From Octopus sinensis (taxonomy: Eukaryota), in assembly GCF_006345805.1 (NCBI RefSeq), contig NC_043018.1, positions 28,396,001 to 28,460,000 of the forward strand: a stretch of 64,000 nucleotides of DNA, given 5' to 3'. Below, one piece after another: positions 4,192 to 63,871 of this stretch. Made by a program: the position numbers and the translations under genes. The stretch's first letter is position 1, and the number at the start of each line of letters is the position of its first letter. Under the pieces are notes generated by a model. It did not search any database. It saw nothing but the letters and a program-made list of their open reading frames with translations, and was not told the origin of the DNA.

Positions 4192-4496
4192 TCACGTGAT
4201 CACGTGACCGACCAGACCATCAGATGTTCTTACACATCGCTGGTCACAATGCGTTCGCATCGTTTTAGCCTTCGAATGACGCCGCCCCGCTGGCTAAGCG
4301 AGCAGACCAACAGAAGAAAGAGTGGGAGATAGAGTGGTGAAAGAGTACAGCAGAGATCACCACCCCCTGCCGGAGCCTCGTGGAGCTCTTTTAGGTGTTT
4401 TCGCTCAATAAACACTCGCAACGCCCGGTCTGGGATTTGAAACCGCGATCCTGCGACCGCGAGTCCGCTGCCCTAACCACTAGGCCATTGCGCCTC

Positions 4497-14007: not shown

Positions 14008-14145
14008 GGAGATTTTGCGAAAAAAACGAACACATGTGGTGTACAAAACAAACAGATGTATTAGTATAACGACCAGAAATAGAAAAAGTGTTTTACGTTT
14101 CGAGCCTACTCTCTTCTACAGAAGGGACACAGAAAACAAGGAGAT
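14008..14145 (-). repeat. Short non-coding repeat with an HHR-like motif (family C)
   Basis: ctgtagaagagagtaggctcgaaacgtaaaa on the minus strand. Homologues at 27.1, 41.9 and 54.6 kb. Confidence 0.65.
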
Positions 14146-14895: not shown

Positions 14896-15188
14896 TATAT
14901 ATATACATATATAAATTTAAAAATAAGAGATCTAAACAAATCTCAGTGCATTTTTAACTTCTGTTTATATATATATATTTTTTAATATATCTTCACCCGT
15001 GTGAAGTAAAACAACTGTTTCCTCTATATAATTCTATATCTATTTCTATCCATCTCGCTGTCTCTCTCTATCTATCTATCTAACTATTTCTCTCGACTGA
15101 CTTGAGTACCTAATTCACTGAATCTCAATTATTGCTTAAGTCATCAACCAAACCTATATTATATATATATATATAATATATATATAAT

Positions 15189-15305
15189 ATCACCGTGACC
15201 GACCAGGCTATCAGATGTAGCTACACATCGGTGGTCACAATGCATTTCGCATTGTTTTAGCCTTCAAATGACGCCACCCTCACTGGCTAAGCCGACAGAA
15301 AAAGA
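15189..15305 (-). mobile_element. 3' fragment of SINE family 3
   Basis: Matches 4200-4320. Confidence 0.75.
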
Positions 15306-15308
15306 GAA

Positions 15309-15676
15309 TGAAACAGTAATCGCTCGATAATGTAAAGTTGACAACAATCCCGAAACTAGTTCGAGCGTATCACTCAGACTTGAGAGGAAGGGATGGCCTC
15401 CCTTTGCAAATACTCCAAGGACACAGATATTGTGTCTAAAGCCAGCTAGAGACGAAGATCTCTTGGGGCTATAAAGCTACAGTAACACCCCCTCCCCAAT
15501 GTGGTTAGCCATGATAAGATGGCTTCTATACTTTACATTATCGAGCGATTACTGTTTCAATCTCATTCTGAGATTTAATTATGCTTACTGTTCGTTTTTC
15601 GACACCAGTGGCAGACGCCATTAGAAAAACTTATATCTATTTGCAAAGGAGCCTTCTCTTTCATCGCTACCTGGTG
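15309..15676 (+). mobile_element. Left part of a ~357-nt-period HHR-containing repeat (retrozyme/pLTR-like), split by the LINE insertions
   Basis: 15340-15540 is repeated at 26801-27000. 15309-15338 is a perfect 30-bp inversion of 15530-15559. Confidence 0.75.
15659..15676 (+). repeat. 18-bp target-site duplication tttcatcgctacctggtg (also 21226-21243 and 26763-26780)
   Basis: Three exact copies at the left, middle and right junctions of the LINE pair. Confidence 0.95.
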
Positions 15677-15930
15677 TTTTTTGAATTTTTCCTCGGCGTA
15701 TACCAATATTTTTCTGTTGCTGCAAATCGTTGTGTGAGTTCGTTTCCGTTTGTCTACTCTGTCGTGTTACAAGTAATATCATTGTTGAACTGTTTTTGAC
15801 CCAGTAATTTTCGCCCTTCGGGGTAGAAAATTTCTGTGTGCTGTTTTGTGTGAACTCTTAACCTGTATAGGTTATTTTTGGAAAAAAAAAAAATTCTCTT
15901 GTCATTTGTGACAAGTTTGTGTTGTCTAAT

Positions 15931-17439
15931 ATGGAATTAGACTTAAGTTCAAAAAAAGACTTTCCCGAGATGGGAGAAAGTATAACAACTGTTAAACAAA
16001 AGGAAACACAGACAAAACCCAGTTTTTCAGACGCCGTAGGTGGCGAAGTCGAAGAAATGGAGGTATCAATGGAAAGATTATTCAAGTTTAGATCGCTGGT
16101 GCAAAAAAGTGGTGAAGAAACACGATTGGTACCGCCCCCCGAAACTATACAAGCAATAAAGGAAAAAATGGTCACCTACAGGGTGTACAATATCAAGGAA
16201 AAACGAATGACCGACGTGAAAAACGAAATGGTCGAAAAGTGTATGGCTCCAATATGGAGTAAAGTTAGTCATGTCAACCGAGGTGCAAGAAGCGCTACAG
16301 TGGAGGCGCATTTTGAAACGGCGGAAGTAGCAAGGCAAATTTCGACACAAACGTTGAAAAACGAGAGTATAATACTGCTACCCTTATATTTAGGATGCAG
16401 AACCGCAAAAGTGACCCTAGAAGATATACCAACGGGCTACGACGTGATGTGGGCGGCAACAGCGGTCATTTTTGATGTTGAATCAAAATTGACAATTTTA
16501 AGTATGAAGAGAAAAATTGCAAAACACTGGAGAGGCCAGCAGCTGGAGATGATAATCCAGGCGGAAAATGCGACGTTGGAAAGCCTACCAGACAGAGTCT
16601 TCGTGGGGGAGGGGCACTCCATACGAGTTTCGGTGGAAGGACGCAGGCCCAGATGTTTTAAGTGCGGGCAAAAGGGCCACGTTCGCTCCGTTTGCACAAA
16701 AAAAAATAATGCGGGCAACGCCCCCCCACAAAACGCTGTGAAGAACGCAGAAAGCAGCAAAGTGGAGAAAAAAGTAACGGCTGGCGAAAACAAGGAGGAA
16801 AAAATAAACAGGTCGAACTCCAAAAAGGAGGAAGACAAGAACGAAATGCAAAATGAGAAAGGAAAGGATGAGGAAAATAATGCAACAAAAACAAATAAAC
16901 AAGAAGACATGGAATTTACGAACGTGTCCAACAAAAGGAAAAAATCCATCACCCCTGACTCCCCACCCGTATCAAAAAAAAAAAACAACGCAGACGAACA
17001 AATTAAAAATATTCTCCAATCCCACCCCGGCGGTACTACACTTATAGGCCAGCACTTTAACAAACCCCACCCCCCAACTGTAAAAGGGTTTAAACCCAAC
17101 GAAAAAATTATTGCATACACCACAAAGAACGTGAGAGTAGAAACATGGGTGAAAGCAAGTACGCTGATCAGGTGCTACAAAGCGACCGAGAAGGAAGCGG
17201 AGTGGCGATATGGAAGGGTCGGCGAAGAAGGATGGAAAGACAAAACCTTACAAAGCCACGTAAAAGCCGGCTTCATTAAGGATGTCACCCAGGAGGTGAC
17301 AACTGGGAAATTACCCGTTAGCCCGGCAGCCACACCAACCCAGAGCCCGGTGGCAACGCCGGTGAAACACCCAGCAGCAACGGCGAGTGGGGGGGAGACA
17401 GGCAGAAAGAATCTGTCAGGCTCCCTCTCGCAACCGTGA
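15931..17439 (+). CDS. LINE ORF1p, nucleic-acid-binding protein with a CCHC zinc knuckle
   Basis: Open ~502-aa frame from the first ATG. CFKCGQKGHVRSVC is followed by a Lys/Glu-rich region. Confidence 0.9.
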   Translation: MELDLSSKKDFPEMGESITTVKQKETQTKPSFSDAVGGEVEEMEVSMERLFKFRSLVQKSGEETRLVPPPETIQAIKEKMVTYRVYNIKEKRMTDVKNEMVEKCMAPIWSKVSHVNRGARSATVEAHFETAEVARQISTQTLKNESIILLPLYLGCRTAKVTLEDIPTGYDVMWAATAVIFDVESKLTILSMKRKIAKHWRGQQLEMIIQAENATLESLPDRVFVGEGHSIRVSVEGRRPRCFKCGQKGHVRSVCTKKNNAGNAPPQNAVKNAESSKVEKKVTAGENKEEKINRSNSKKEEDKNEMQNEKGKDEENNATKTNKQEDMEFTNVSNKRKKSITPDSPPVSKKKNNADEQIKNILQSHPGGTTLIGQHFNKPHPPTVKGFKPNEKIIAYTTKNVRVETWVKASTLIRCYKATEKEAEWRYGRVGEEGWKDKTLQSHVKAGFIKDVTQEVTTGKLPVSPAATPTQSPVATPVKHPAATASGGETGRKNLSGSLSQP

Positions 17440-17462
17440 GTAAATAATTTTCTTTTTTCTCG

Positions 17463-20400
17463 ATGATTAAGTTAGGTTGTATAAATGTGCGTGGAATGGG
17501 ATCGAAATGGAAACAGGCTTGTTTTCGTGACGACCTCATTTCACATAGAATCGAAGTAGCTATTGTTACCGAGTCCAAGATGAAGGACCCCAAGCGTTCT
17601 CACCACTTCTCAATGGTTACGAGAAATTTATTTCTCCTAGCCGAGGGGGAGGTGCAGGCGTGGCAGTTCTTTTCAGGAAGAACTTGGACTTACAGGTAAG
17701 TACTGTCTTTTTGGACCCAGAAGGTAGGCTGGTTGTCCTAGATGTGACGCACGTGAGTAAGCAGTCCTTCAGGTTGGTGGCTGTCTACGCTCCTAACGGA
17801 CGTGGGCAGACCGGTTTTTATCGGGAACTGGAGCACTTTCTAGTGACGTCCAAAACGGTAGTCTTGGTAGGGGATTTCAACACCATTCTCGATGCGCGGG
17901 TGGATGGTGTAGGCTCGAGCGATAGGAAGGGGAATCCTGGCCTCAAGGCTCTACTAGCGAGCTTTAATCTAGTAGACCGTTTTCGACTGGATGAGCCGAA
18001 CGTTCCACAGTGGACGTGGAGTAATAACGACGGCTCACTCAGATCGTACATAGATAGAGTATTTGTTAAGGAACGAGATAGGAATAGTGTTAGCTGTCCA
18101 CAATTCTCTGTTGTGCCTTACACGGATCACAAACTTGTAACGTGTGAGGTACATGTAGATAAATGCCATAGACAAGGTCCCGGGTACTGGAAGATGAACA
18201 AGTCTATTTTGACCTGTGAAGCTTTCCGTACCCGGATTAAGGAATTAGTACAGAGGGCATTATGTGGCACCATCATTAATAATAGATGGTGGCTCGCCCT
18301 CAAAAGAGCCATCCGTTTGGAGTCCATTAGATTTAGCAAGCAGCTAAGTTTAGATAGGACTAGAATAGAGGGCGAATTAGTTAAGAACTTAGACGAGGCT
18401 ATGGAATCTGGCTGTGCATCCGGAGTGTTGGCAGCGAGAGCGGTATTGTACCGTCACCTCAACGCCAAGCACGAGGGGTGTAGAGTCAGAGCTAAGTTAC
18501 GTGCAGGAAAACGAGAAGGTATTAACGTTGCCGGATGGGCCCGTCGTGAGGAGAGTCAGAAGGGCAAAAAGTCCTGTATTATGTCCTTAACTGACGAGCA
18601 GGACCGCAAGATCTATGGACAGGAGGAGATGCAGAAGGTCCTTCACCAGCATTTCGCACGGCTGTTGGGGGCGGTGGCCCGCTCGAGCGTGGGGAGACCT
18701 TAAAGGACTTCCTAGCTGGTGGGCCTCGGCTCTCGGCAGGTGAGGCGGAGTGCTGTGAAGGATCGATCTCTCCCGCAGAGGTAAGAGGGGTTATGGCCGA
18801 GTGCGCCGGGGAAAAGTCACCGGGATTGGATGGTCTACCCTATGAATTTTATTGTTGTATGCCGGACTTGTTCGGGGACATACTGGCAAGCGTCTATGCA
18901 AACTGGCAACAGAATGGGAGGATTCCCAGCTCTGTGAGTCGGGGAGTTGTGACGCTGGTCCAGAAAGACCCGAGCAAGGGGGACAGTATTAGTAATTACA
19001 GGCCCATAACTCTACTTAATGTAGAGTTTAAGATTTTGGCCAAGGTGTTAGCAAAAAGGTTGACGGCTGTCGTGAAGAAACTTGTCGGGAAGGCACAGAC
19101 ATGTGCAATCCCAGGCAGGTCGATCCAGGATAATCTTCACCTTCTCCGCTACACTATAGATAGGGTCGGGAAATTAGACGGCAAAGGAGGGGCATTGGTC
19201 CATTTAGACCAAAGTAAAGCGTTTGATAGGGTGGACCATCGGTACTTGGCGGCGGTTCTCGAAGCGGCTGGGCTGGGCCCTGGCTTCTGCGGGTGGATCT
19301 CAGCTATGTACAGCGGCATCAAGTCCACAGTCCAGATAAACGGTTACCTAACGGAGCCGTTTTCGATCAAGCGTTCAGTTCGACAAGGGTGCCCCTTGTC
19401 CCCGCTCCTGTATGTTTTGGCTCTTGAGCCATTGCTGCGGAAGCTGGAGAAGTGGGAGGCAACCCTAATGAAATCGGATGCGGTAAGTCTGTTTCTGCCT
19501 ATGCGGATGACGTCACCCTCATCGTGTCCAACGGAACACAGCTACCTCGGGTAGTAGGTGCTCTCCATAGATACGAAGCGGTGGCAGGGGCAAAAGTTAA
19601 CAGGGACAAGTCCATCGGTTTGCGCCTCGGCACCTGGAGGAACAAGCAGATACCGTCCAGTGTTGTTGGACACTGGACGGATGGTCCTGTTAAATTGCTC
19701 GGAGTATGGTTTGGTCCAGACTCCCAGACGGAGAAGAATTGGAGCGAGGTAACGAGCAAGGTGGATGCCATAGTACGGAAGTGGTCCGGAAGGCATCTTT
19801 CCTTGAAAGGGAGGGCGGAGGTGGCACAGATGTTTATAGCCTCTGTCGTCACCTACCGCCTGACCGTCGTGCCTTGCCCCGATTCGTGGTTAAACAAGTT
19901 GGAACGACTTCTTTTCCGCTTTTTGTGGAAAGGAGGAAAGCCACTTGTGAGACGCTCCGTGTGTTGCCAGGAACCGCTAAAGGGTGGACTGGGGATGCCT
20001 TGGCTAATGATGCGCAAGCATGCGTTGAGGCTGAGACACCTCTGGTGTTACCTGGAGGATGATAAGGTGTGGAGTTCGCTGGCAGAGGAATTCTTCCCGC
20101 GACCGGCCTCTATGGAGGGATTTACACCCGGTCTCATTAAAGGACGTAAACTGACTTCATGGCAGAAGGAGTGCCGACAGGCACTCTGGCTGATCCACAA
20201 GATGGGTAAGGCCGGCAGCGGGAATACCACCTCGGTGTTCTATAAAGGGCTGGTAGGAGGAAAAAATGACGACGTCCTAGGAAGGGCTCTGGGGTTCGAT
20301 GAGGATCAACTCTCCAACCTGTTTAAGAAGACTTTCAGGCCGGGGTATTTGGATAATTACCAAAAATCCCTGACCTGGCAGTGCTATAGGAATGCATTAC

Positions 20401-20849
20401 CTGTTCGCGAGAAGTTATCCAGGCACGGAATGTCAGTGCCACCGACGTGTCCAAGATGTGGGTTGGACGATGAAACCGTTCAACACGCTTTTGTACAATG
20501 TCGGGAGCTGTCAGGCTTGATAAGTTACGTGGAACACGTGTTGTCGCATCTGGGACGAGTACAGCTGTCGGCTGGATCTATGATTAAGATGATACCGCCA
20601 ACTGGACTCTCAAAGGAAGGTAAGGCTTGTTTTTACTGTACGGTGGCAGTATTGAAAGAGTGTGTATGGAGAACTAGAGTGGAAGGTCTAGTGAAAGGGT
20701 CCTTTATCTCTGGCCCCGGTTTGTTAAAATACTTCGGATATCATCTGAAGAGCAAGATGGGGTTGGAGAAGAGGAGCATGCCACAGAAAGAGTATATGGA
20801 ACGTTGGAAGGATGTGATGAGAAAGGTGGGTGAGAGTAACCCAGCTTAA
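17463..20849 (+). CDS. LINE ORF2p (APE endonuclease, RT, C-terminal CCHC) with three 1-nt frameshifts
   Basis: Motifs INVRG, VYAPN, VGDFN, IDRVF, TDH, KSPGLDG, YRPITLLN, DQSKAFDRV, RQGCPLSP, YADD and CPRC..ETVQHAFVQC. Restoring one base each at ~17586, ~18665 and ~19452 from copy 2 gives ~1129 aa. Confidence 0.92.
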
Positions 20850-21016
20850 TCATCGAGGAAAGGAAAATCAGCTGCTGGGATTTATAGGCTGCCGGGTTCA
20901 AAATTGAAACTGGTACCTCCCATTACCTTTCACTGTACATAACTGTTTAAAATAAAGAATTAATAATAAAAAAAAGAAATGAAAAGAAAACATACGCACT
21001 AAAAGTTCTCGTGATA

Positions 21017-21099
21017 AAGGCAAAAGTAAGCCAGGTTTCGTTTCAAGGCAAAGTAAGCCAAGGTTTCGTTTCAAGGCAAAGTAAGCCAAGTTTTCGTTC
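21017..21099 (+). repeat. ~28-bp tandem repeat in the LINE 3'UTR (3 units; 2 units in copy 2 at 26582-26636)
   Basis: Unit aaggcaaagtaagccaggtttcgtttc. Confidence 0.85.
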
Positions 21100-21497
21100 A
21101 AGTGACATAAAATTTTAATTTTGTAATTTTTTAAATTTCATTCGAACTCGCATAGCATTTTTGTAACTGTTTTGTCCTGTAATGTATCCATTCTATGTTA
21201 GATCTATTGATCATAATAAAGAAAATTTCATCGCTACCTGGTGTTTTTTGAATTTTTCCTCGGCGTATACCAATATTTTTCTGTTGCTGCAAATCGTTGT
21301 GTGAGTTCGTTTCCGTTTGTCTACTCTGTCGTGTTACAAGTAATATCATTGTTGAACTGTTTTTGACCCAGTAATTTTCGCCCTTCGGGGTAGAAAATTT
21401 CTGTGTGCTGTTTTGTGTGAACTCTTAACCTGTATAGGTTATTTTTGGAAAAAAAAAAAATTCTCTTGTCATTTGTGACAAGTTTGTGTTGTCTAAT

Positions 21498-23005
21498 ATG
21501 GAATTAGACTTAAGTTCAAAAAAAGACTTCCCGAGATGGGAGAAAGTATAACAACTGTTAAACAAAAGGAAACACAGACAAAACCCAGTTTTTCAGACGC
21601 CGTAGGTGGCGAAGTCGAAGAAATGGAGGTATCAATGGAAAGATTATTCAAGTTTAGATCGCTGGTGCAAAAAAGTGGTGAAGAAACACGATTGGTACCG
21701 CCCCCCGAAACTATACAAGCAATAAAGGAAAAAATGGTCACCTACAGGGTGTACAATATCAAGGAAAAACGAATGACCGACGTGAAAAACGAATGGTCGT
21801 CGAAAAGTGTATGGCTCCAATATGGAGTAAAGTTAGTCATGTCAACCGAGGTGCAAGAAGCGCTACAGTGGAGGCGCATTTTGAAACGGCGGAAGTAGCA
21901 AGGCAAATTTCGACACAAACGTTGAAAAACGAGAGTATAATACTGCTACCCTTATATTTAGGATGCAGAACCGCAAAAGTGACCCTAGAAGATATACCAA
22001 CGGGCTACGACGTGATGTGGGCGGCAACAGCGGTCATTTTTGATGTTGAATCAAAATTGACAATTTTAAGTATGAAGAGAAAAATTGCAAAACACTGGAG
22101 AGGCCAGCAGCTGGAGATGATAATCCAGGCGGAAAATGCGACGTTGGAAAGCCTACCAGACAGAGTCTTCGTGGGGGAGGGGCACTCCATACGAGTTTCG
22201 GTGGAAGGACGCAGGCCCAGATGTTTTAAGTGCGGGCAAAAGGGCCACGTTCGCTCCGTTTGCACAAAAAAAAATAATGCGGGCAACGCCCCCCCACAAA
22301 ACGCTGTGAAGAACGCAGAAAGCAGCAAAGTGGAGAAAAAAGTAACGGCTGGCGAAAACAAGGAGGAAAAAATAAACAGGTCGAACTCCAAAAAGGAGGA
22401 GACAAGAACGAAATGCAAAATGAGAAAGGAAAGGATGAGGAAAATAATGCAACAAAAACAAATAAACAAGAAGACATGGAATTTACGAACGTGTCCAACA
22501 AAAGGAAAAAATCCATCACCCCTGACTCCCCACCGTATCAAAAAAAAAAAACAACGCAGACGAACAAATTAAAAATATTCTCCAATCCCACCCCGGCGGT
22601 ACTACACTTATAGGCCAGCACTTTAACAAACCCCACCCCCCAACTGTAAAAGGGTTTAAACCCAACGAAAAAATTATTGCATACACCACAAAGAACGTGA
22701 GAGTAGAAACATGGGTGAAAGCAAGTACGCTGATCAGGTGCTACAAAGCGACCGAGAAGGAAGCGGAGTGGCGATATGGAAGGGTCGGCGAAGAAGGATG
22801 GAAAGACAAAACCTTACAAAGCCACGTAAAAGCCGGCTTCATTAAGGATGTCACCCAGGAGGTGACAACTGGGAAATTACCCGTTAGCCCGGCAGCCACA
22901 CCAACCCAGAGCCCGGTGGCAACGCCGGTGAAACACCCAGCAGCAACGGCGAGTGGGGGGGAGACAGGCAGAAAGAATCTGTCAGGCTCCCTCTCGCAAC
23001 CGTGA
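21498..23005 (+). pseudogene. ORF1 of copy 2, frameshifted as assembled
   Basis: Fragments 21536-21898, 21793-22572, 22413-22613 and 22697-23005 match copy 1 ORF1. Confidence 0.85.
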
Positions 23006-23027
23006 GTAAATATTTTCTTTTTTCTCG

Positions 23028-26000
23028 ATGATTAAGTTAGGTTGTATAAATGTGCGTGGAATGGGATCGAAATGGAAACAGGCTTGTTTTCGTGACGACC
23101 TCATTTCACATAGAATCGAAGTAGCTATTGTTACCGAGTCCAAGATGAAAGGACCCCAAGCGTTCTCACCACTTCTCAATGGTTACGAGAAATTTATTTC
23201 TCCTAGCCGAGGGGGAGGTGCAGGCGTGGCAGTTCTTTTCAGGAAGAACTTGGACTTACAGGTAAGTACTGTCTTTTTGGACCCAGAAGGTAGGCTGGTT
23301 GTCCTAGATGTGACGCACGTGAGTAAGCAGTCCTTCAGGTTGGTGGCTGTCTACGCTCCTAACGGACGTGGGCAGACCGGTTTTTATCGGGAACTGGAGC
23401 ACTTTCTAGTGACGTCCAAAACGGTAGTCTTGGTAGGGGATTTCAACACCATTCTCGATGCGCGGGTGGATGGTGTAGGCTCGAGCGATAGGAAGGGGAA
23501 TCCTGGCCTCAAGGCTCTACTAGCGAGCTTTAATCTAGTAGACCGTTTTCGACTGGATGAGCCGAACGTTCCACAGTGGACGTGGAGTAATAACGACGGC
23601 TCACTCAGATCGTACATAGATAGAGTATTTGTTAAGGAACGAGATAGGAATAGTGTTAGCTGTCCACAATTCTCTGTTGTGCCTTACACGGATCACAAAC
23701 TTGTAACGTGTGAGGTACATGTAGATAAATGCCATAGACAAGGTCCCGGGTACTGGAAGATGAACAAGTCTATTTTGACCTGTGAAGCTTTCCGTACCGG
23801 ATTAAGGAATTAGTACAGAGGGCATTATGTGGCACCATCATTAATAATAGATGGTGGCTCGCCCTCAAAAGAGCCATCCGTTTGGAGTCCATTAGATTTA
23901 GCAAGCAGCTAAGTTTAGATAGGACTAGAATAGAGGGCGAATTAGTTAAGAACTTAGACGAGGCTATGGAATCTGGCTGTGCATCCGGAGTGTTGGCAGC
24001 GAGAGCGGTATTGTACCGTCACCTCAACGCCAAGCACGAGGGGTGTAGAGTCAGAGCTAAGTTACGTGCAGGAAAACGAGAAGGTATTAACGTTGCCGGA
24101 TGGGCCCGTCGTGAGGAGAGTCAGAAGGGCAAAAAGTCCTGTATTATGTCCTTAACTGACGAGCAGGACCGCAAGATCTATGGACAGGAGGAGATGCAGA
24201 AGGTCCTTCACCAGCATTTCGCACGGCTGTTTGGGGGCGGTGGCCCGCTCGAGCGTGGGGAGACCTTAAAGGACTTCCTAGCTGGTGGGCCTCGGCTCTC
24301 GGCAGGTGAGGCGGAGTGCTGTGAAGGATCGATCTCTCCCGCAGAGGTAAGAGGGGTTATGGCCGAGTGCGCCGGGGAAAAGTCACCGGGATTGGATGGT
24401 CTACCCTATGAATTTTATTGTTGTATGCCGGACTTGTTCGGGGACATACTGGCAAGCGTCTATGCAAACTGGCAACAGAATGGGAGGATTCCCAGCTCTG
24501 TGAGTCGGGGAGTTGTGACGCTGGTCCAGAAAGACCCGAGCAAGGGGGACAGTATTAGTAATTACAGGCCCATAACTCTACTTAATGTAGATTAAGATTT
24601 TGGCCAAGGTGTTAGCAAAAAGGTTGACGGCTGTCGTGAAGAAACTTGTCGGGAAGGCACAGACATGTGCAATCCCAGGCAGGTCGATCCAGGATAATCT
24701 TCACCTTCTCCGCTACACTATAGATAGGGTCGGGAAATTAGACGGCAAAGGAGGGGCATTGGTCCATTTAGACCAAAGTAAAGCGTTTGATAGGGTGGAC
24801 CATCGGTACTTGGCGGCGGTTCTCGAAGCGGCTGGGCTGGGCCCTGGCTTCTGCGGGTGGATCTCAGCTATGTACAGCGGCATCAAGTCCACAGTCCAGA
24901 TAAACGGTTACCTAACGGAGCCGTTTTCGATCAAGCGTTCAGTTCGACAAGGGTGCCCCTTGTCCCCGCTCCTGTATGTTTTGGCTCTTGAGCCATTGCT
25001 GCGGAAGCTGGAGAAGTTGGGAGGCAACCCTAATGAAATCGGATGCGGTAAGTCTGTTTCTGCCTATGCGGATGACGTCACCCTCATCGTGTCCAACGGA
25101 ACACAGCTACCTCGGGTAGTAGGTGCTCTCCATAGATACGAAGCGGTGGCAGGGGCAAAAGTTAACAGGGACAAGTCCATCGGTTTGCGCCTCGGCACCT
25201 GGAGGAACAAGCAGATACCGTCCAGTGTTGTTGGACACTGGACGGATGGTCCTGTTAAATTGCTCGGAGTATGGTTTGGTCCAGACTCCCAGACGGAGAA
25301 GAATTGGAGCGAGGTAACGAGCAAGGTGGATGCCATAGTACGGAAGTGGTCCGGAAGGCATCTTTCCTTGAAAGGGAGGGCGGAGGTGGCACAGATGTTT
25401 ATAGCCTCTGTCGTCACCTACCGCCTGACCGTCGTGCCTTGCCCCGATTCGTGGTTAAACAAGTTGGAACGACTTCTTTTCCGCTTTTTGTGGAAAGGAG
25501 GAAAGCCACTTGTGAGACGCTCCGTGTGTTGCCAGGAACCGCTAAAGGGTGGACTGGGGATGCCTTGGCTAATGATGCGCAAGCATGCGTTGAGGCTGTG
25601 AGACTGAGACACCTTTACCTGGAGGATGATAAGGTGTGGAGTTCGCTGGCAGAGGAATTCTTCCCGCGACCGGCCTCTATGGAGGGATTACACCCGGTCT
25701 CATTAAAGGACGTAAACTGACTTCATGGCAGAAGGAGTGCCGACAGGCACTCTGGCTGATCCACAAGATGGGTAAGGCCGGCAGCGGGAATACCACCTCG
25801 GTGTTCTATAAAGGGCTGGTAGGAGGAAAAAATGACGACGTCCTAGGAAGGGCTCTGGGGTTCGATGAGGATCAACTCTCCAACCTGTTTAAGAAGACTT
25901 TCAGGCCGGGGTATTTGGATAATTACCAAAAATCCCTGACCTGGCAGTGCTATAGGAATGCATTACCTGTTCGCGAGAAGTTATCCAGGCACGGAATGTC

Positions 26001-26413
26001 AGTGCCACCGACGTGTCCAAGATGTGGGTTGGACGATGAAACCGTTCAACACGCTTTTGTACAATGTCGGGAGCTGTCAGGCTTGATAAGTTACGTGGAA
26101 CACGTTGTCGCATCTGGGACGAGTACAGCTGTCGGCTGGATCTATGATTAAGATGATACCGCCAACTGGACTCTCAAAGGAAGGTAAGGCTTGTTTTTAC
26201 TGTACGGTGGCAGTATTGAAAGAGTGTGTATGGAGAACTAGAGTGGAAGGTCTAGTGAAAGGGTCCTTTATCTCTGGCCCCGGTTTGTTAAAATACTTCG
26301 GATATCATCTGAAGAGCAAGATGGGGTTGGAGAAGAGGAGCCTGCCACAGAAAGAGTATATGGAACGTTGGAAGGATGTGATGAGAAAGGTGGGTGAGAG
26401 TAGCCCAGCTTAA
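23028..26413 (+). pseudogene. ORF2 of copy 2, frameshifted as assembled
   Basis: Fragments 23028-23813, 23882-24595, 24600-25601, 25636-26151 and 26105-26413. The breaks differ from those in copy 1. Confidence 0.88.
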
Positions 26414-26780
26414 TCATCGAGGAAAGGAGGGATCGGCTGCTGGGATTTATAGGCTGCCGGGTTCAAAATTGAAACTGGTACCTCCCATTACCTTCACTGT
26501 ACATAACTGTTTAAAATAAAGAATTAATAATAAAAAAACAGAAATGAAAAGAAAACATACGCACTAAAAGTTCTCGTGATAAAGGCAAAAGTAAGCCAGG
26601 TTTCGTTTCAAGGCAAAGTAAGCCAAGTTTTCGTTCAAGTGACATAAAATTTTAATTTTGTAATTTTTTAAATTTCATTCGAACTCGCATAGCATTTTTG
26701 TAACTGTTTTGTCCTGTAATGTATCCATTCTATGTTAGATCTATTGATCATAATAAAGAAAATTTCATCGCTACCTGGTG

Positions 26781-27000
26781 ATTATCGCCCGTTGACGAGG
26801 GACAACAATCCGGAAATTAGTTCGAGCGTATCACTCAGGCTTGCGAGGAAGGGATGGCCTCCCTTTGCAAATACTCCAAGGACAGAGATCTTGTGTCTAA
26901 AGCCAGCTAGAGACGAAGATCTCTCGGGGCTATAAAGCACAGTAACACCCCCTCCCCAATGTGGTTAGCCATGATAAGATGGCTTCTATACTTTATATTA
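26781..27000 (+). mobile_element. Right part of the HHR-containing target repeat
   Basis: Continues directly from 15676 once the LINEs are removed. Ends in (TA)n. Confidence 0.75.
26786..26828 (+). ncRNA. Type I hammerhead ribozyme variant (U3 core)
   Basis: cgcccg-TTGACGA-ggga-caacaa-tccg-GAAA-t-ta-GTT-cgagcg. The partial copy at 15340-15367 supplies tccc-GAAAC-TA-GTT, giving a perfect stem II and a palindromic stem III. Confidence 0.72.
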
Positions 27001-27029
27001 TATATTCTATATATATATATATATATATA

Positions 27030-27231
27030 TCGCCTGTTGATTCGTTAGTTACTGCCGCATTTTTTTTCTCTCCTTATTTCTGTGTTTTTTCTCTCTGGTA
27101 TCTTTCTGTTGAAGAGCGTAGGCTCGAAACGTTAAAGACTTGTTTTATTATATTTCCTGAGCGCCATACTAATACAATTGTTTGTTTGTTCCCACCTGCC
27201 TTCATATTGGTCTATTTTCATAAGCTTCCCG

Positions 27232-27232
<1 letters not shown>
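27030..27232 (+). repeat. Family C repeat with an HHR-like motif (27101-27138)
   Basis: tcttt-CTGTTGA-a-gagc-gtag-gctc-GAAA-c-GTT-aaaga. Flanked by (TA)n. Confidence 0.65.
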
Positions 27233-27283
<51 letters not shown>

Positions 27284-41789: not shown

Positions 41790-41979
41790 CCATGATAGAT
41801 CGCTACCCAATACGCATTCTTTATTTTCTCACCTTTTTTCTTTCTGTGTTCCTTTCTGTGGAAGAGCGTAAGCTCGAAACGTTAATGAAATTTTTACTTC
41901 TCGAGCGTCATACTAACATATCTGTTTGTTGTCTACACCACCTGTCTCCGTCTGTTGTTTTTTATTGTGAATTCTCTCC

Positions 41980-44222: not shown

Positions 44223-44318
<96 letters not shown>

Positions 44319-45415
44319 AAATAGTAAAGAGTGAAAAAACGACAGAAGGCTTAAATGTTAAAAAATATATATATTTGCGTCAATATGTCTGAAGAATATT
44401 AGAAAATTTTTTAAACAAATTTTTTTTCCCTTTATAATGACAAAATTTTAAAGAAAGACCAGTTTCGCATTTAGCTTTCAAATTTCTTGTGACGTTATGT
44501 TTATGTTTGATAGAGTTATCCTTGTGTTTAAGCTCCGGAGAGTTCTAAATAAGGGAAGGTAGTGGGTGATTCCTTCCGGTGTAAGGGAGATAACCGCTTA
44601 AAGATTTTTTTCCTTTCCCTTAATGTGAATTTCTCTGTATCAGTATGTTCGGATGGTTGAGTCTGGGCTTGTACTTTTCAATGAAGAATGTTTCCTTGTT
44701 TAGTCTAATTTGTGTTGATGATCCGAAAGCACACTGGTAAAATGGAAAGATTAAAAATTGTGGTAGTAGTTGCTTTGCGCATTTCTCAATGTGCTCACTA
44801 AAAGGTTTCATTCTATATTCTGGGAATGCAATCTGTTGTCGATGCAGTGTCTGAGTGATAGTCAAGAAAAACCAAACAACCCACGATTCCATACACTAAA
44901 AACAGAAATCACCCACAACCAACCTTTGTAAACCACGCAAGACCTAACAGGGAACTAGCTGACAGAGGACGCGTCTATGAAATAAATTACACCAAAAACA
45001 GAACACACCAACAACATCCTAATACCAGACCCAACCACCATACAGCACAAAACGACACAAGAATAAGAAATACACCACACACAAATCGCTACTACCCCAT
45101 GAACCAAAACTACTGGTCCCCAATAAACACAAGACAAACGCAAAAAAACACTATGTCAAGCAACATCCCACATACAAGCAGTTCGAAACAAAAATATTTC
45201 CCATACAGAAATTTTACACATACCACAAACAATAACAACCATAGATTCCCACACACACACAACGATCGGGGGCAACAATACCACCACTCCCCCGACCAAA
45301 TACCACACAACCTCACAGGCAACTCATACAAACAAAATTACACCCAACATTTTTTAGCCAGGGACCAGGGACACCAGGACACAGGCTGGAACCTAGTAAT
45401 AAGGAAAAACCGAAG

Positions 45416-47620
45416 ATAATCAATCTTTCAACCAAACCTCTTTCTAACATAAAAATTGACATCCTCTTAAAAGGGCTCAAGTTTACACCAACTCCACGCA
45501 GAGCCAACCTAAATGAAATCAAGGATAATATAACAGAATTTTGCAGAAAATTAAGACTAGCAGAAGCATCAACCAGTTTCAATACTGAAGATGAATCACT
45601 AGTCAAGAACAAAAGTGAACACATCCCACACAGAAGAAGAAATAAAGATCTTGACGAATTCTGTAACCACATTGAGAACTTCCCCTACCATACTATACAT
45701 AAACAGAAAGCTAACTCAAATTTTAACACTACACAATGGAAAGAACTGATAGAACTTCAAAATGATGAAGATATAACCATTAAGGAAGCAGACAAGGGAA
45801 ATGCAGTTGTAATAATGGATACATCATACTACAGAAATCTTGTAATTTCCTTGCTTGATGACGACCTACATTATGAAAAGATTACCAACTACACCCCACA
45901 AAAAATAATGAAAACTCTATCTTCACTAATTAAAACCCATGAAAAGGAACTAACAACCAAAGGGATTGACTTCCTAACAAACTTTAAATGCAAACCTAGC
46001 CTTTTCTATGGTCTGCCAAAAATTCATAAAATTCAAATTATAAATGAAACCATTAAAAAATCACCAAAGACATACATACACACACCTAACCCGGGGGACC
46101 TAAAACTGCGACCCATTGTAGCTGGCTCAACCTGTGAAACACAGAGACTAAGTCTACTTATGGACATCCTCCTGAAACATATCGATAGCCATATCAGAGA
46201 TGACTTAGATATGTTAAACCACCTTCCCAAAAAAGCCAAGGAAGAAACAATCCTGGTTTCATTTGATGTAGTCATCTTGTATACCAGTATACCTCATAAT
46301 TATGGACTAGAGGCAATACAGTTCTGGCTGGACCAATTTCCGGAAGAAATACCAAAAAGCATCAGTAAAGAACTCATTACTAAATCAATTGAATTCATCC
46401 TACACAATAACCACTTCATGTTTGACAATACATTGCGAACTTAACAATGGGATACATAGAAATAATCATTTACCAGGAATCTTTATCAATCTTTGGAAAT
46501 CCCCTCTCTCAATACATAAAAGAGAACTGGAAACGATTCTTAGACGATTGTTTTATTCTCTGGAATGAAAACACAGATACACTCCTAAAATTTAAAAACC
46601 AATTGAACAGCATAAACCCAAATATACAGTTCACAATGGAATACAACCAAAAGGAGCTCCCGTTCTTGGATAGACTAATTAAAAAAATTAACCTTAAAAT
46701 AGAAACAGACATTTTCTACAAAGCCACAGACGCCAAACAATACCTTCTCTTTAATCCATGCCACCCAAGACACACTAAAACAAACATCCCCTTCAACCTT
46801 GCAAGAAGGATATGCACAATAGTGTCAGAACAAAATACCAGGAACTTTAGACTGCAAGAACTCAAAAACACCCTAATTGACAGACATTACCCAGCTCAAC
46901 TCATAGAGGTTGGGATCAGACGTGCAACAGAAATCAACATAGAAACTTTAAGAAAAGTTCAACAAACAACACACCTTCCCCGAAAATACTACCTTACATA
47001 TCTACATACAACCCCAGAAACAAAGAAGCCTTCACCATCATCACCCAGAATTTACCAATACTTCATAAAAAACCCAAATTAAAGGAAATTCTAAACATAC
47101 ACCAAATCATTAAAAGCTACAAACAGCCTAAATCACTAAAAAGATTCTCACAAAGGCAAAATTGTCTTCTGAAATTACGGATGCAAAAGTAAAATAATGT
47201 GGTAGATCGAACTGTGCAACATGTCCTAACCTGCTAGAAGGATCAGAATTCTTCTTTAAAGAGGGACAGAAATTCAAGATCAAATCTAACTTTACTTGTG
47301 CCTCTGAAAACATAATTTATGCCATAAAATGCTCGGGCTGCCACCAAGACTACGTCGTTTCCACGGAACTATCACTCAGACGTAGATGCACACTGCATCG
47401 ACAACAGATTGCATTCCCAGAATATAGAATGAAACCTTTTAGTGAGCACATTGAGAAATGCGCAAAGCAACTACTACCACAATTTTTAATCTTTCCATTT
47501 TACCAATGTGCTTTCGGATCATCAACACAAATTAGACTAAACAAGGAAACATTCTTCATTGAAAAGTACAAGCCCAGACTCAACCATCCGAACATACCGA
47601 TACAGAGAAATTCACATTAA
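45416..47620 (+). pseudogene. PLE RT + GIY-YIG, decayed (deletion of the GIAMGT motif at ~46430, stops and frameshifts)
   Basis: Motifs IINLS..LLKGLKFTPTP, KEADKGNAVVIMD, FYGLPKIHK, LRPIV, SFDVVILYTSIP, RFLDDCF and LPFLD. Confidence 0.9.
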
Positions 47621-47751
47621 GGGAAACGAAAAAAAATTTTAAGCGGTTATCTCCCTTACACCGGAAGAAATCACCCACTACCTTCCCTTATTTAGAACTC
47701 TCCGGAACTTAAACACAAGGAATACTCTATCAAACATAAACATAACGTCAC

Positions 47752-47790
47752 AAGAAATTTGAAAAGCTAAATGCGAAACCGGTCTTTCTT
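47752..47790 (+). ncRNA. Minimal HHR variant (U3-A8 core) in the PLE 3' region
   Basis: aagaaat-TTGAAAA-gc-taaat-gc-GAAA-c-cg-GTC-tttctt. Confidence 0.65.
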
Positions 47791-47984
47791 TAAAAATTAT
47801 GTCATTATAAAGAGAAAAAAAATTTGTTTAAAAAATTTTCTAATATTCTTCAGACATATTGACGCAAATATATATATTTTTTAACATTTAAGCCTTCTGT
47901 CGTTTTTTCACTCTTTACTATTTTTTATATATTCACCCACGTGCTTTCACAAACCAACTTCTTATCTATGTATATATATATATA

Positions 47985-53695: not shown

Positions 53696-55530
53696 TTACG
53701 CTTGACTTTTGCTTTGTATTTGTACAATTTGTCTGCAAGTCTCACCCAGGGACCTCAAAAGACAAAAAGTTAGAAGTCCAAGTTGGTGTTATGCCTAAAG
53801 TGTCATATATTTGGTTTGGCACAAAGTATTGTTCTAGAGAATGTTTAAGAAAACCTAAGAAAATAATAAGTTTGTTTTAAAATGTGAAATTACATAGACA
53901 GTATTTTACGTAGGATATAGGCAGTTCCCATGAGCTAGGTAGGACTCAGCCCCTTTTGCTAACATTCCTAGGGCACCTATGACAACATTTATTGTTTTAT
54001 AATCTTGAGGTTCCACATTTTGCCAATTTCTATTTTAAGATCTTTATACTTGCTCAGTTTCGGTAGATCTTGACAGAGACATTTATGTCGATTGGGATAG
54101 TCATATCAATGAGGAGGCATGATTTTTGTTTAAAGTCCTTCAGTATAATGTATGGCCTATTTGCATCTATCTTTCTGTCAGTTTGAATGGTGAAGTTCCA
54201 GAGGAGTGAGATGTGATCATTTTCAAGCACTGGAGGTGTTTTGTGTTCCCACCAGTTTTTCTCATGGGGCAAGTCCAGGTTTTTGCAAATTACTCAGTGA
54301 ATATACTGTGCTGCTCTAGCATGCCTGTTGAGATACTCTGTGGGCTCAAGAAGACAGCATAATCAATGATTTAATTTTGTTGTTTACATACACAACATGT
54401 TGAGCTACTGTCACTCCTTAATATGTTGACCTTGTAGCTCCTTGTAGGTTAGCATTGATATTAAAGAGAAAGTTTACGAAAATATACAAAATACGAAGGC
54501 AGGTGGAGTACAAACAAACAAATGTATAGCGCTCAGGAATAGAAAAGTATTTTATGTTTCGAGCCTACGCTCTTCGACAGAAAGATACACAGAAAAAAAT
54601 CAAGGAGAGAAACAAGGAGAGTAAAAAAATGCGTGTAGGAGCTAACGATCTATCATGGCGTCCTGACTTCGGACTGGTCAGATATTAGGCTGCTATGATA
54701 CACCCAACTGTTTCCGATTTTAAACCAGAAGACACTAACCATTGATGGCTAAGGGCTTTGTCAACATCAGCATTATTAGCTATCTTTGTGTATTTGCCAT
54801 TGAGAGGTTTTTCTTGACATTTATCAGTAGGAATATCTAAGTCAGCAGTTTTAGCATAGGTTTTCATACGCTTAGGTTTTTCTGTTCTTGTTTCCATTAC
54901 GTCTAATTCTGGTATTCGTTGTATTTGGAATTCACTTAGATATTCTTTTACCTGTTTTGTTACTGAGTATGATGCTCTCTTGCTTTCGTGCGTTAAGATA
55001 AGTTATAACATTCAGCCATCAGAGTTTTTCAGGTAGGGGTTCAGGCCTATTGTAGCAATCGTCATTGTTAATTCCAGCCACCATCTTGTTCTGGCGGGTA
55101 AAGTCGTTCTATATCTGCCTTAGGTTGGTGCATTCTATGTATTGTCAGCAATTTTCATATTTTACTGTCAAGATTAAATATTTCAGTAATTGACCACTTA
55201 ATGGAATTGAAGCTGTAAGTCACGACCGGTATGGCTAAAGTATTGATCGCTTCGATCCTGCTTCTTGCATTCAGCTATCTTGAGTATTGCACTTACTCTG
55301 GGATAACATTCTCTTCTGATCCTTTCCCACATCACTGAATGTTTGATTCCATCAACTTCAAATACCCATAGATATTTGTAGTTCTCCGCTGGTTCTAACT
55401 CCTTTATGACATTCGGCTAGTCAAAATTAACGCTGAATGTTTCTGTCATTTTCCCTTTGACAAAGGTAGCTTTTGCACAGTTACCGAGGCCAAATTGCAT
55501 CCTGATGTCATCAATGAATTGTTTAATAAC
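53696..55530 (-). mobile_element. 5'-truncated R4/Dong-like LINE (RT 3' half + restriction-like endonuclease), decayed
   Basis: Peptides YKYLW, WLVSSGLKSETVGCIIAA, WWEHKTPPVLEND, LWNFTIQTDRKIDANRPYII and LIDMTIP. The 3' end abuts (TAA)n, the known Dong target. Confidence 0.8.
54464..54680 (-). repeat. Family C repeat nested in the Dong LINE with a 7-bp duplication gatatta
   Basis: gatatta at 54457-54463 and 54681-54687. HHR-like motif at 54548-54585. Confidence 0.7.
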
Positions 55531-60966: not shown

Positions 60967-62290
60967 ATGTATGTATATATAATATATATATATATATATA
61001 GATAAGAAAGTTTGTTTGGTAAAGCTCGTGGGTGAATATATAAGAAAATAGTAAAGTGTGAAAAAACGACAGAAGGCTTAAATGTTAAAAAATATATATA
61101 TATTTGTGTCAAAATGTCTGGAGAATATTGGAAAAAATTTTTTCCTTTCCTTAAAATGACATAATTTTAAAATTTTTAAAGAAATTACCGGTTTCGCGTG
61201 TAGCTTTTCAAATTTCTTGTGACGTTATGTTTATATTGCATGGAGTTATCGTTGTGTTTATTTTCAGGAGATTTCTAATAAGGGGAGATAGTGAGTGATT
61301 TCTTCTTCCGTGTAAGGGAGATAATCGCTTAAAAATTTTTTTCCCCTTTCCCTTGTTAATTTCTCGTGTGTATATGTTCGGATGGTGAGTCTGGGCTTGT
61401 ACTTTTCAATGAAGAATGTTTCCTTGTTCAGTCTCATTTGTGTTGATGATCCGAAGCACATTGGTAAAATGGGAAGATTAAAAATTGTGGCAGTAGTTGC
61501 TTTGCGCATTTCTCAATGTGCTCACTAAAAGGTATCATTCTATATTCTGGGAATGCAATCTGTTGTCGATGAGCAGTGTGCATCTACGCCTGAGTGATAG
61601 TCCCGTGGAACCCACGTAGTCTTGGTGGCAGCCCGAGCATTTAATGACATAAATTATGTTTTCAGAGGCACAAGTAAAGTTAGATTTGATCTTGAATTTC
61701 TGTCCCTCTTTAAAGAAGAATTCTGATCCTTCCAATAGGTTAGGACATGTTGCACAGTTCGATCTACCACATTTTTTTACTTTTGCATCCGTAATTTTAG
61801 AAGACAATTTTGCCTTTGTGAGAATCTTTTTAAGTGATTTAGGCTGTTTGTAGCTTTTAATGATTTGGTGTATGTTTAGAATTTCCTTTAATTTTGGGTT
61901 TTTATGAAGTATTGGTAAATTCTGGGTGATGATGGTGAAGGCTTCTTGTTTTCTGGGGTTGTATGTAGATATGTAAGTAGTATTTTCGGGGACGGTGTGT
62001 TGTTGTGTTGAACTTTTCTTAAAGTTTCTATGTTGATTTCTGTTGCACGTCTGATCCCAACCTCTATGAGTTGAGCTGGGTAATGTCTGTCAATTAGGGT
62101 GTTTTTGAGTTCTTGCAGTCTAAAGTTCCTGGTATTTTGTTCTGACACTATTGTACATATCCTTCTTGCAAGGTTGAAGGGGATGTTTGTTTTAGTGTGT
62201 CTTGGGTGACATGAATTAAAAAGAAGGTATTGTTTGGCGTCTGTGGCTTTGTAGAAAATGTCTGTTTCTATTTTAAGGTTAATTTTTTTA

Positions 62291-63511: not shown

Positions 63512-63647
63512 CAAGGGAAAGGGGAAAAAAATTTTTAAGCGATTATCTCCCTTACACCGGAAGAAATCACTCACTACCTCCCCTTATTTAGAAATCTCCT
63601 GAAAATAAACACAACGATAACTCCATGCAATATAAACATAACGTCAC

Positions 63648-63687
63648 AAGAAATTTGAAAAGCTACACGCGAAACCGGTAATTTCTT
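63648..63687 (+). ncRNA. Minimal type I HHR variant (U3-A8); inverted copy at 61179-61218
   Basis: aagaaat-TTGAAAA-gc-tacac-gc-GAAA-c-cg-GTA-atttctt. Perfect 7-bp stem I and palindromic ACCGGT stem III. Confidence 0.75.
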
Positions 63688-63821
63688 TAAAAATTTTAAA
63701 ATTATGTCATTTTAAGGAAAGGAAAAAAATTTTTCTAATATTCTCCAGACATTTTGACACAAATATATATATATTTTTTAACATTTAAGCCTTCTGTCGT
63801 TTTTTCACACTTTACTATTTT

Positions 63822-63871
<50 letters not shown>

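What the first reader, a model, noticed from the sequence alone, without database searches (positions are those of the whole stretch)
15340..26998. Reconstructed 357-nt retrozyme-like unit with an HHR on a ~50-bp rod
Seen: after excising 11,104 bp, gacaacaatcc recurs at a period of 357 nt (~1.6 units). On the plus strand, 15638-15676 + 26781-26791 (tatttgcaaagg agcc ttctctttcatcgc ta cctg gtgat tat cgcccg) pairs with 26823-26873, using several G-U wobbles that favour the plus strand. It closes UUGACGA / GGGA-caacaa-UCCC / GAAAC-UA-GUU. A 30-bp inversion at the 5' end copies sequence from around and beyond the point where the last unit stops. Established: metazoan non-LTR retrozymes are tandem 170-400-nt type I HHR repeats that yield circular RNAs and are thought to use PLE machinery. 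Inference: this is such an element, copied from a circular or multimeric RNA. Neither HHR copy here is fully intact.
Basis: partly seen in the sequence, partly recalled or inferred. Interest (0 to 1): 0.75.

Follow-up and report, generated by a model that had tools for sequence, protein, structure and literature searches.

The report
Octopus hammerhead mini-element with nested LINEs
A 357-base non-coding jumping element of an octopus carries a hammerhead-type self-cutting RNA motif and has been split, right beside that motif, by two copies of a larger jumping gene that may seek out this exact site.

Summary
Removing 11,104 bp restores a 357-nt ORF-less unit present 1.56 times, with a 30-nt inverted 'tail'. 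A type I hammerhead (HHR) topology closes a 41-pair rod. The host is Octopus sinensis. Contigs from 2 of 4 public runs bridge the empty site and keep the same non-standard U3·G8 core, so the reconstruction is real and the odd core is not private decay.

The claimed G·U strand bias is not supported. Cleavage, covariation, expression and circles are untested. A shared 3' end near unit position 196 and about 8-fold more depth near that end fit a dispersed, 5'-truncated mini-Penelope-like element better than a long tandem retrozyme array.

It is two tandem 5.5-kb L1/Tx1-type LINEs, separated and flanked by three exact copies of an 18-bp target-site duplication taken from the ribozyme's stem-I extension. 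The same LINE-site-LINE junction is abundant in another run. My best reading is a Penelope-mobilised retrozyme-like element parasitised by a LINE specific for it (about 60% for specificity). I did not find that target class in my searches.

The parts
15309..15338 (-). Inverted 30-nt segment = unit positions 191-220; starts at the 3' terminus of the insertion and runs past it (PLE-type 'tail')
   Evidence: exact match; blastn extends it to 38 nt at 94.7%
15340..15676 (+). Unit positions 1-337, first copy; starts inside HHR stem II
15340..15361 (+). 3' half of a type I HHR: rest of stem II with a 6-nt loop, G12-A14, 2-bp stem III inside an 8-nt palindrome, U17; predicted cut after 15361. No 5' core in front of it
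   Evidence: cut site inferred from HHR numbering
15362..15412 (+). 3' arm of stem I and the rod, left copy
15638..15676 (+). Outer 5' arm of the rod (continues at 26781)
15659..15676 (+). 18-bp target-site duplication, copy 1 (unit 320-337)
15677..21225 (+). L1/Tx1-type LINE, copy 1: ORF1 15931-17439 (CCHC knuckle, E 7e-4, just under the cut-off); ORF2 about 17460-20849 (APE endonuclease, RT, zf-RVT), broken by frameshifts in this assembly; AATAAA at 21215
21226..21243 (+). 18-bp target-site duplication, copy 2, between the two LINEs
   Evidence: junction contig in run X5
21244..26762 (+). LINE copy 2, 98.8% identical to copy 1 (14 substitutions, 18 gaps, one fewer 27-28-bp 3' UTR repeat)
26763..26780 (+). 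18-bp target-site duplication, copy 3; regenerates the inner 5' arm of the rod behind the LINE
26781..26800 (+). Unit positions 338-357: 5' strand of stem I, HHR core U3-A9 at 26792-26798, start of stem II
   Evidence: same core in two public contigs
26792..26822 (+). The only complete-length HHR core at the locus (U3·G8; stem II damaged at 11.1, stem III at 15.2); predicted cut after 26822, 60 nt behind the LINE 3' end
26801..26995 (+). Unit positions 1-196, second copy (terminal redundancy, pLTR-like), ending in a TA run; the end is ambiguous to 27001

Best explanation
Two layers. (A) The 357-nt unit is a non-autonomous, ORF-less element moved in trans by a Penelope-like (PLE) RT/GIY-YIG enzyme. 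Reverse transcription starts at a fixed site near unit position 196 on a more-than-unit RNA (read-through multimer or circle) and usually stops early. Here it ran 1.56 units and left the inverted 30-nt tail. The plus-strand RNA folds into a long stem I closed by a type I hammerhead whose short palindromic stem III would let two copies cleave as a dimer at GUU, probably slowly because of U3·G8. (B) Later an L1/Tx1-type LINE cut this unit at positions 319/320 and 337/338, inserted by target-primed reverse transcription in the ribozyme's orientation, and a second copy entered the regenerated site. The LINE most likely recognises this 18-bp region. Read-through past its poly(A) signal, 5 nt from its end, would give the RNA a target-complementary 3' end. 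SHOWN: unit, period, empty site in other genomes, tail, HHR topology in folding, LINE anatomy, three TSDs, LINE-TSD-LINE junction in another run. INFERRED: PLE mobilisation, fixed 3' end, cleavage, dimer action, sequence specificity, read-through priming.
For: Unit and tail. Inverted copy plus a 30-40-nt tail is the described PLE signature (Craig 2021 passages; Arkhipova 2013 passages). Empty site and same core in 2 of 4 runs from two organism codes. With the left copy's 3' half, stem II pairs have probability 0.85-0.99, five of six stem I pairs 0.91-0.97, and the HHR-compatible fold is 0.1 kcal/mol above the MFE. Stem III palindrome duplex -8.0 kcal/mol. U3 with G8 and a GUU site is listed for a Saccoglossus PLE hammerhead (PMC4209133 supplement file 2). 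Longest ATG ORF 41 aa. An X4 contig leaves the unit at 15535 (position 196, the same 3' end) and restarts at position 45. Summed depth over positions 54-256 is 7.4-8.1 times my estimate for 257-337 in 3 of 3 DNA-sized runs. PLE-type coding copies lie in the same window (GIY-YIG only E 0.02). LINE; three exact 18-mers; X5 contig across LINE-TSD-LINE at depth 151 against 197-199 for contigs with no substituted letters relative to this LINE. Tandem insertions sandwiching a TSD are described for Tx1-mobilised, target-specific SINEU-3 (PMC4494074 passages).
Against: No cleavage, expression or covariation data. The core departs from consensus at C3 without the compensating A8, and stem I has a C·A mismatch at its third pair. 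8 of 9 predicted Xenopus retrozymes did not cleave in vitro. Rfam does not recognise the motif. No wobble bias between strands. The unit has no significant similarity to the PLE copies in the window, so no partner is identified. The LINE-TSD-LINE joint is listed for 1 of 4 runs only, and all copies could descend from one expanded array. No second independent unit-LINE junction was seen (135 joints and 2,206 loose ends were not shown). Contig depth is not copy number, and the depth ratios use my rough subtraction. Tx1 membership was not tested by a tree.
Confidence: 0.6

Rival explanations
1. Classical non-LTR retrozyme: the family exists as tandem arrays, is transcribed, self-cleaves and accumulates as a 357-nt circle that templates new insertions.
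For: Size and fold resemble mussel retrozymes of 350-390 nt. HHR has canonical proportions (stem I about 6 bp plus internal loop, stem II 4 bp, no extra base after A9) rather than the PLE minimal type. The circular unit folds at z -4.0 with the HHR stems open to form. The 357-nt cycle closes without an ORF.
Against: Depth is about 8-fold uneven around the unit, whereas long arrays would give even depth. Only one full core at this locus. No listed piece shows more than one unit. Non-standard core.
Confidence: 0.3
2. The unit is the pLTR plus 5' leader of a coding PLE, and this locus is an internally deleted by-product, not a self-propagating family.
For: The redundancy of about 200 nt plus a 30-nt tail matches pLTR dimensions in Adineta Pen2a (218 bp, 31-bp tail). 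Depth is much higher on the part nearest the 3' end.
Against: Even the rarer part of the unit is about 24-26 times deeper than the 5' end of a multicopy LINE in 3 of 3 runs. No coding remnant: no six-frame or DNA match to the window's PLE ORFs.
Confidence: 0.2
3. The LINE is not site-specific. One chance insertion into an abundant repeat was duplicated by recombination between the 18-bp TSDs and expanded into one long array, collapsed to two copies in the assembly.
For: The copies are 98.8% identical. A single array of tens of copies would also give a junction depth close to body depth (151 vs about 198). The target repeat is abundant.
Against: 18 bp is short for unequal crossing-over (general knowledge). 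The two copies differ by clustered substitutions and repeat-unit number, and 5' UTR variants segregate among runs. Many Tx1-clade LINEs are target-specific, several for other transposons.
Confidence: 0.3
4. The hammerhead is a dead relic: the family spread by PLE mobilisation from a master copy whose core had already mutated (C3 to U), and the rod is what the PLE or LINE proteins use.
For: U3·G8, a stem I mismatch and U17 all depart from the fastest consensus. Natural covariation described at 3-8 is U3-A8. Naiad PLEs spread without HHRs.
Against: The two public variants differ from the window at 2 and 3 of the 13 non-core positions of the bridged 20 nt and at 0 of the 7 core positions (small numbers). 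A U3·G8/GUU motif is catalogued in another animal's PLE.
Confidence: 0.35

Closest known systems
Metazoan non-LTR retrozymes (Cervera & de la Peña 2020, PMC7229834; Li, Clavereau & Pollet 2026, bioRxiv 10.64898/2026.07.22.740005)
   Same: Non-coding unit of 357 nt, GC 44%, type I HHR with short palindromic stem III, highly self-paired, more than one unit in tandem, coexisting with PLEs.
   Different: Only 1.56 units and one full core here; U3·G8 core; depth suggests mostly truncated dispersed copies; circle, cleavage and expression not shown. No octopus retrozyme came up in searches.
EN+ Penelope-like element insertions with pLTR, inverted 5' copy and tail (Arkhipova 2013, PMC3846280; Craig 2021, bioRxiv 10.1101/2021.04.23.441226; Cervera 2014, PMC4209133)
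   Same: About 200-nt terminal redundancy, inverted segment, 30-nt tail, HHR in the redundant part, TA-rich landing site, no clear TSD.
   Different: No ORF. The HHR has canonical proportions on a 41-pair stem rather than the minimal form. No autonomous partner identified.
Target-specific Tx1-clade LINEs: Tx1L (piggyBac-type Tx1D), Tx1-Mar/SINEU-3 (Mariner-N4), Keno (U2), Kibi/Koshi (microsatellites) (Kojima 2015, PMC4494074)
   Same: CCHC ORF1 + APE-RT-zf ORF2, long TSD, insertion into another multicopy element, tandem copies sandwiching a TSD.
   Different: The target is the stem of a hammerhead in a PLE-type mini-element. I saw no such target in the passages read. That paper's Fig. 3 legend lists unnamed 'Sat' (satellite) targets that I could not see, and Repbase was not searchable.
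R2 elements co-transcribed with 28S rDNA and released by an HDV-like ribozyme (co-transcription; ribozyme link)
   Same: A site-specific LINE embedded in a transcribed repeat with a ribozyme next to its end.
   Different: Here the ribozyme belongs to the target, is a hammerhead, and lies 3' of the LINE; any use of it is hypothetical, and the LINE has its own poly(A) signal.

Membership tests
Non-LTR retrozyme | Non-coding repeat unit of about 150-450 nt | tested here: met
   357 nt, longest ATG ORF 41 aa
Non-LTR retrozyme | Type I HHR topology in the unit | tested here: met
   Stems I, II and palindromic III around the core; not recognised by Rfam
Non-LTR retrozyme | Consensus catalytic core with a C3-G8 (or U3-A8) pair | tested here: not met
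   U3·G8 in the window and in both bridging contigs; one precedent listed
Non-LTR retrozyme | [quoted passage not shown] | tested here: inconclusive
Non-LTR retrozyme | Multicopy family | tested here: met
   Held by 20 of 24 listed runs, 11 studies; bridging contigs at depth 76 and 336 with different letters
Non-LTR retrozyme | Self-cleavage and circular RNA in vivo | not testable with these tools
   Only contigs available; no run on record as RNA
Non-LTR retrozyme | Covariation in HHR stems | not testable with these tools
   Only two partial copies in hand; variant rows for the unit fell among 594 not shown
PLE-type insertion (non-autonomous) | Partial tandem forming a pLTR-like redundancy | tested here: met
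   About 196-201 nt
PLE-type insertion (non-autonomous) | Inverted 5' segment with a 30-40-nt tail | tested here: met
   30 nt exact, unit 191-220
PLE-type insertion (non-autonomous) | Fixed 3' end, variable 5' truncation | tested here: inconclusive
   One further junction at position 196, one contig starting at position 176, depth gradient
PLE-type insertion (non-autonomous) | Terminal homology to an autonomous PLE of the host | tested here: inconclusive
   None to the two PLE loci in the window; genome not held
Tx1-clade LINE | ORF1 with CCHC knuckle; ORF2 with APE endonuclease, RT and C-terminal zinc motif | tested here: met
   (closest solved structures: human L1 ORF2p)
Tx1-clade LINE | RT phylogeny groups with named Tx1 elements | not tested
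   Homologues returned carried no clade names; 'Tx1' is my recalled label for this architecture
Target-specific LINE (Kojima criterion) | Same target type at more than 20% of family flanks, at independent loci | tested here: inconclusive
   2 of 2 copies here; tandem junction depth 151 vs about 198 in X5, listed for 1 of 4 runs; independence of loci unknown

The most novel reading that the evidence does not exclude
A LINE lineage has specialised on a ribozyme-bearing mini-retroelement: a parasite of a parasite of Penelope elements. It cuts 11-29 nt upstream of the hammerhead core, and its 18-bp duplication rebuilds the inner stem I behind its own 3' end. LINE transcripts could then be driven from the host unit and trimmed by an active U3·G8 hammerhead 60 nt past the LINE end, giving a target-complementary 3' end for priming, while each insertion blocks the 357-nt circle of that copy.
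Probability: 0.15. Interest if true: 0.8.

Novelty: new variant of a known kind. Interest (0 to 1): 0.5.

Why it matters
It adds a cephalopod example at the border between retrozymes and mini-PLEs, with insertion anatomy that bears directly on the proposal that retrozymes are moved by PLE enzymes. Its U3·G8 core, and the U6 core of a neighbouring family, would be missed by standard hammerhead descriptors, so octopus ribozymes may be undercounted. If the LINE is specific for this site, it is a new target class for L1/Tx1-type elements and a young, near-intact APE-type element with a defined 18-bp site, useful for studying how such endonucleases change targets.

Tried and rejected
No genome held, so no family alignment, covariance model or flank census. 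Rfam: 0 hits at gathering score in the window; 5 chance-level hits, none a ribozyme, in 26700-27250. Pattern scans for the core: 0 in viral contigs, 0 in metagenome contigs, 0 in prokaryote genomes. A metagenome scan with the LINE endonuclease gave 46 distant loci at 20-33% identity, not examined further. No RNA holder listed. Run X6, only guessed to be RNA, covers both unit and LINE, so it says nothing on expression. Strand bias by G·U rejected. An alternative pairing of the stem I 5' strand with the second CGAGCG at unit position 203 has probability 0 in the circular fold. Assembly artefact for the LINE pair considered and rejected: the copies differ by clustered substitutions and the junction exists in X5. 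Many single-base gaps look like assembly errors, since public contigs restore a letter at 17582, 18664 and 19452. tRNA-derived SINE: ARAGORN 0 genes. The segment behind the LINE keeps the inner stem in the MFE but is not more stable than shuffles (z -0.34). Five look-ups of earlier findings: four empty, one with 8 notes. Protein atlas and cluster look-ups gave no clade name. Lünse 2017 is not held.
Full report
Source. The window is microsatellite-rich animal DNA. ORF1 of the insert is 100% identical to a protein labelled LOC115216432 [Octopus sinensis]. No whole genome was held, so family-level evidence comes from one laying of public contigs.

Observation. The 11-mer occurs at 15340 and 26801 only, and an 18-mer occurs exactly at 15659, 21226 and 26763. 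Removing 15677-26780 (11,104 bp) leaves 558 nt with a period of 357; the redundant 202 nt are 95.5% identical. The exact inversion is 30 nt (15309-15338 = unit 191-220), and the right copy fades into a TA run at about unit position 196. The reconstruction is confirmed independently: contigs of X7 (depth 336) and X4 (depth 76) run from 15676 through 20 letters to 15340, differ from the window's 20 letters at 3 and 2 places, and keep the seven core letters (table 5c; X5 and X6 show no such row among those displayed, 12 rows hidden). The stretch 15330-15700 is held by 20 of 24 listed runs from 11 studies.

Structure. The spliced segment folds at -55.8 kcal/mol, z -5.3; the rod has 41 pairs. That alone is unusual but not unique: the five lowest of 98 GC-matched window segments have lower raw energies, 2 of 98 reach z <= -5.3, and the best was confirmed at z -5.9. 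What makes it specific is the apex: stem I, a U3-A9 core, a 4-bp stem II with a 6-nt loop, G12-A14, a 2-bp stem III inside an 8-nt palindrome, and U17. With the left copy's 3' half, stem II pairs have probability 0.85-0.99 and the HHR-compatible fold is within 0.1 kcal/mol of the MFE, also with the stems intact in the circular unit. The right copy has lost pair 10.1-11.1 and has U15.2; the left copy starts inside stem II. Rfam does not detect the motif.

Is the core functional? C3 is replaced by U with G8 kept, in all three versions seen. Described natural covariation is U3-A8 (PMC4209133 parts 1-2 of 4; PMC3088659 passages). The supplement of PMC4209133 (file 2, passages; file 1 not searched) lists a Saccoglossus PLE hammerhead with U3, G8 and GUU, and many with GUU. 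A slow halophile variant also has U3 with G8, behind two inserted bases (PMC7151607 passages). A search for U3-G8 rate data found nothing usable. I put cleavage, at least as a dimer, at about even odds. In the 2026 preprint (parts 1-3 of 5 read) only 1 of 9 predicted elements cleaved.

Retrozyme or mini-PLE. Mussel retrozymes are 350-390-nt tandem repeats giving circles (PMC7229834 parts 2-4 of 6; supplement too large to read). The insertion anatomy here is that of PLEs: partial tandem, inverted 5' piece, 30-40-nt tail (Craig 2021 passages; Arkhipova 2013 passages). Three hints favour 3'-anchored dispersed copies. An X4 contig leaves the unit at position 196, the same end as here, and restarts at 45. 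An X6 contig enters at position 176 from AT-rich DNA. Summed depth over positions 54-256 is 8.1, 7.7 and 7.4 times my estimate for 257-337 in X7, X4 and X5. The tool warns that depth is no copy number, and the estimate subtracts an assumed LINE depth. PLE-type coding copies with inverted structure lie at about 44310-47930 and 61036-63830 (GIY-YIG E 0.02, below cut-off; 'Neptune-like' is my recalled label for the cysteine linker), but they share no significant similarity with the unit. So the element works like a retrozyme in design and moves like a PLE; membership in the strict tandem, circle-making class is unproven.

The insert. It is two head-to-tail copies of a 5.5-kb LINE, 98.8% identical, with a CCHC ORF1 and an APE-RT-zf-RVT ORF2; the nearest solved structures are human L1 ORF2p. 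The best RT relatives are at 77% (unnamed) and 70% (Argonauta) identity. I call it L1/Tx1-type from architecture; no tree was made. The 18-mer is unit 320-337, part of the rod's 5' arm, ending 11 nt before the core. In X5 a contig crosses LINE 3' end, 18-mer and LINE 5' end at depth 151, against 197-199 for contigs with no substituted letters relative to this LINE; the joint is listed for that run only. The rarer part of the unit is about 24-26 times deeper than the LINE 5' end in 3 of 3 runs, so most units are empty. Tx1-clade elements often target other transposons, and tandem copies around a TSD are attributed to sequential insertion (PMC4494074 passages and section 15; supplements not readable). 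The rival, one array expanded by recombination, is not excluded. Because the duplication rebuilds the inner arm, the hammerhead behind the LINE keeps its stem I in the MFE (though z -0.34), with the predicted cut 60 nt past the LINE end. The LINE's own AATAAA lies 5 nt from its end, so use of the ribozyme is speculative.

Literature check. Ten searches (listings only unless named above) returned no paper describing an octopus retrozyme or a LINE targeting a hammerhead repeat. The O. vulgaris repeat annotation (PMC13282606 passages and supplement passages) lists 13 recently active L1-Tx1 families and has no mention of ribozymes. PMC10886601 and PMC8490949 (passages) added nothing. The library lacks most subscription papers and Repbase, and the 'Sat' targets in Kojima's Fig. 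3 could not be seen, so absence is provisional.

Verdict. Observation confirmed with corrections; interpretation partly supported. The unit is a new member of a known kind with a non-standard core. The probable LINE target makes the whole a new variant of a known kind. Interest 0.5.

Noticed in passing
window 27030-27230 (+); also 54470-54648 (-), 41834-41947 (+), 14046-14123 (-): A second dispersed family with a PLE-type minimal hammerhead. All 4 copies have U in place of A6. The motif is far better conserved than its flanks: 23 of 27 columns invariant against 45 of 93. A possible natural A6U core variant.
   Followed up: partly
window 15188-15308; second copy about 4199-4420: Truncated copy of a very abundant, TA-flanked repeat joined directly to the inverted tail; by far the deepest bin in all 4 runs. 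Unclassified.
   Followed up: partly
window 44310-47930 and 61036-63830: PLE-type coding copies (RT-like ORF, cysteine linker, weak GIY-YIG) with long inverted arms, 96-100% alike between the two loci.
   Followed up: partly
window 25652-25798 and other parts of LINE ORF2: Strong local RNA structure inside the LINE coding region, z -5.9.
   Followed up: no
window 21017-21102 and 26582-26639: 27-28-bp tandem repeat in the LINE 3' UTR, 3.1 copies in one LINE and 2.1 in the other.
   Followed up: no
public contigs laid on 15417-15564 and 15442-15519: Variants of the unit in run X4 that replace parts of the branched domain with 14 or 27 other letters, suggesting subfamilies (table 5c).
   Followed up: no
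window 7854 (+): Another hammerhead-like motif with a consensus core and a 5-bp stem II in a relaxed scan.
   Followed up: no
window 15931-17439: The LINE ORF1 is annotated as a host gene, 'uncharacterized protein LOC115216432'.
   Followed up: yes
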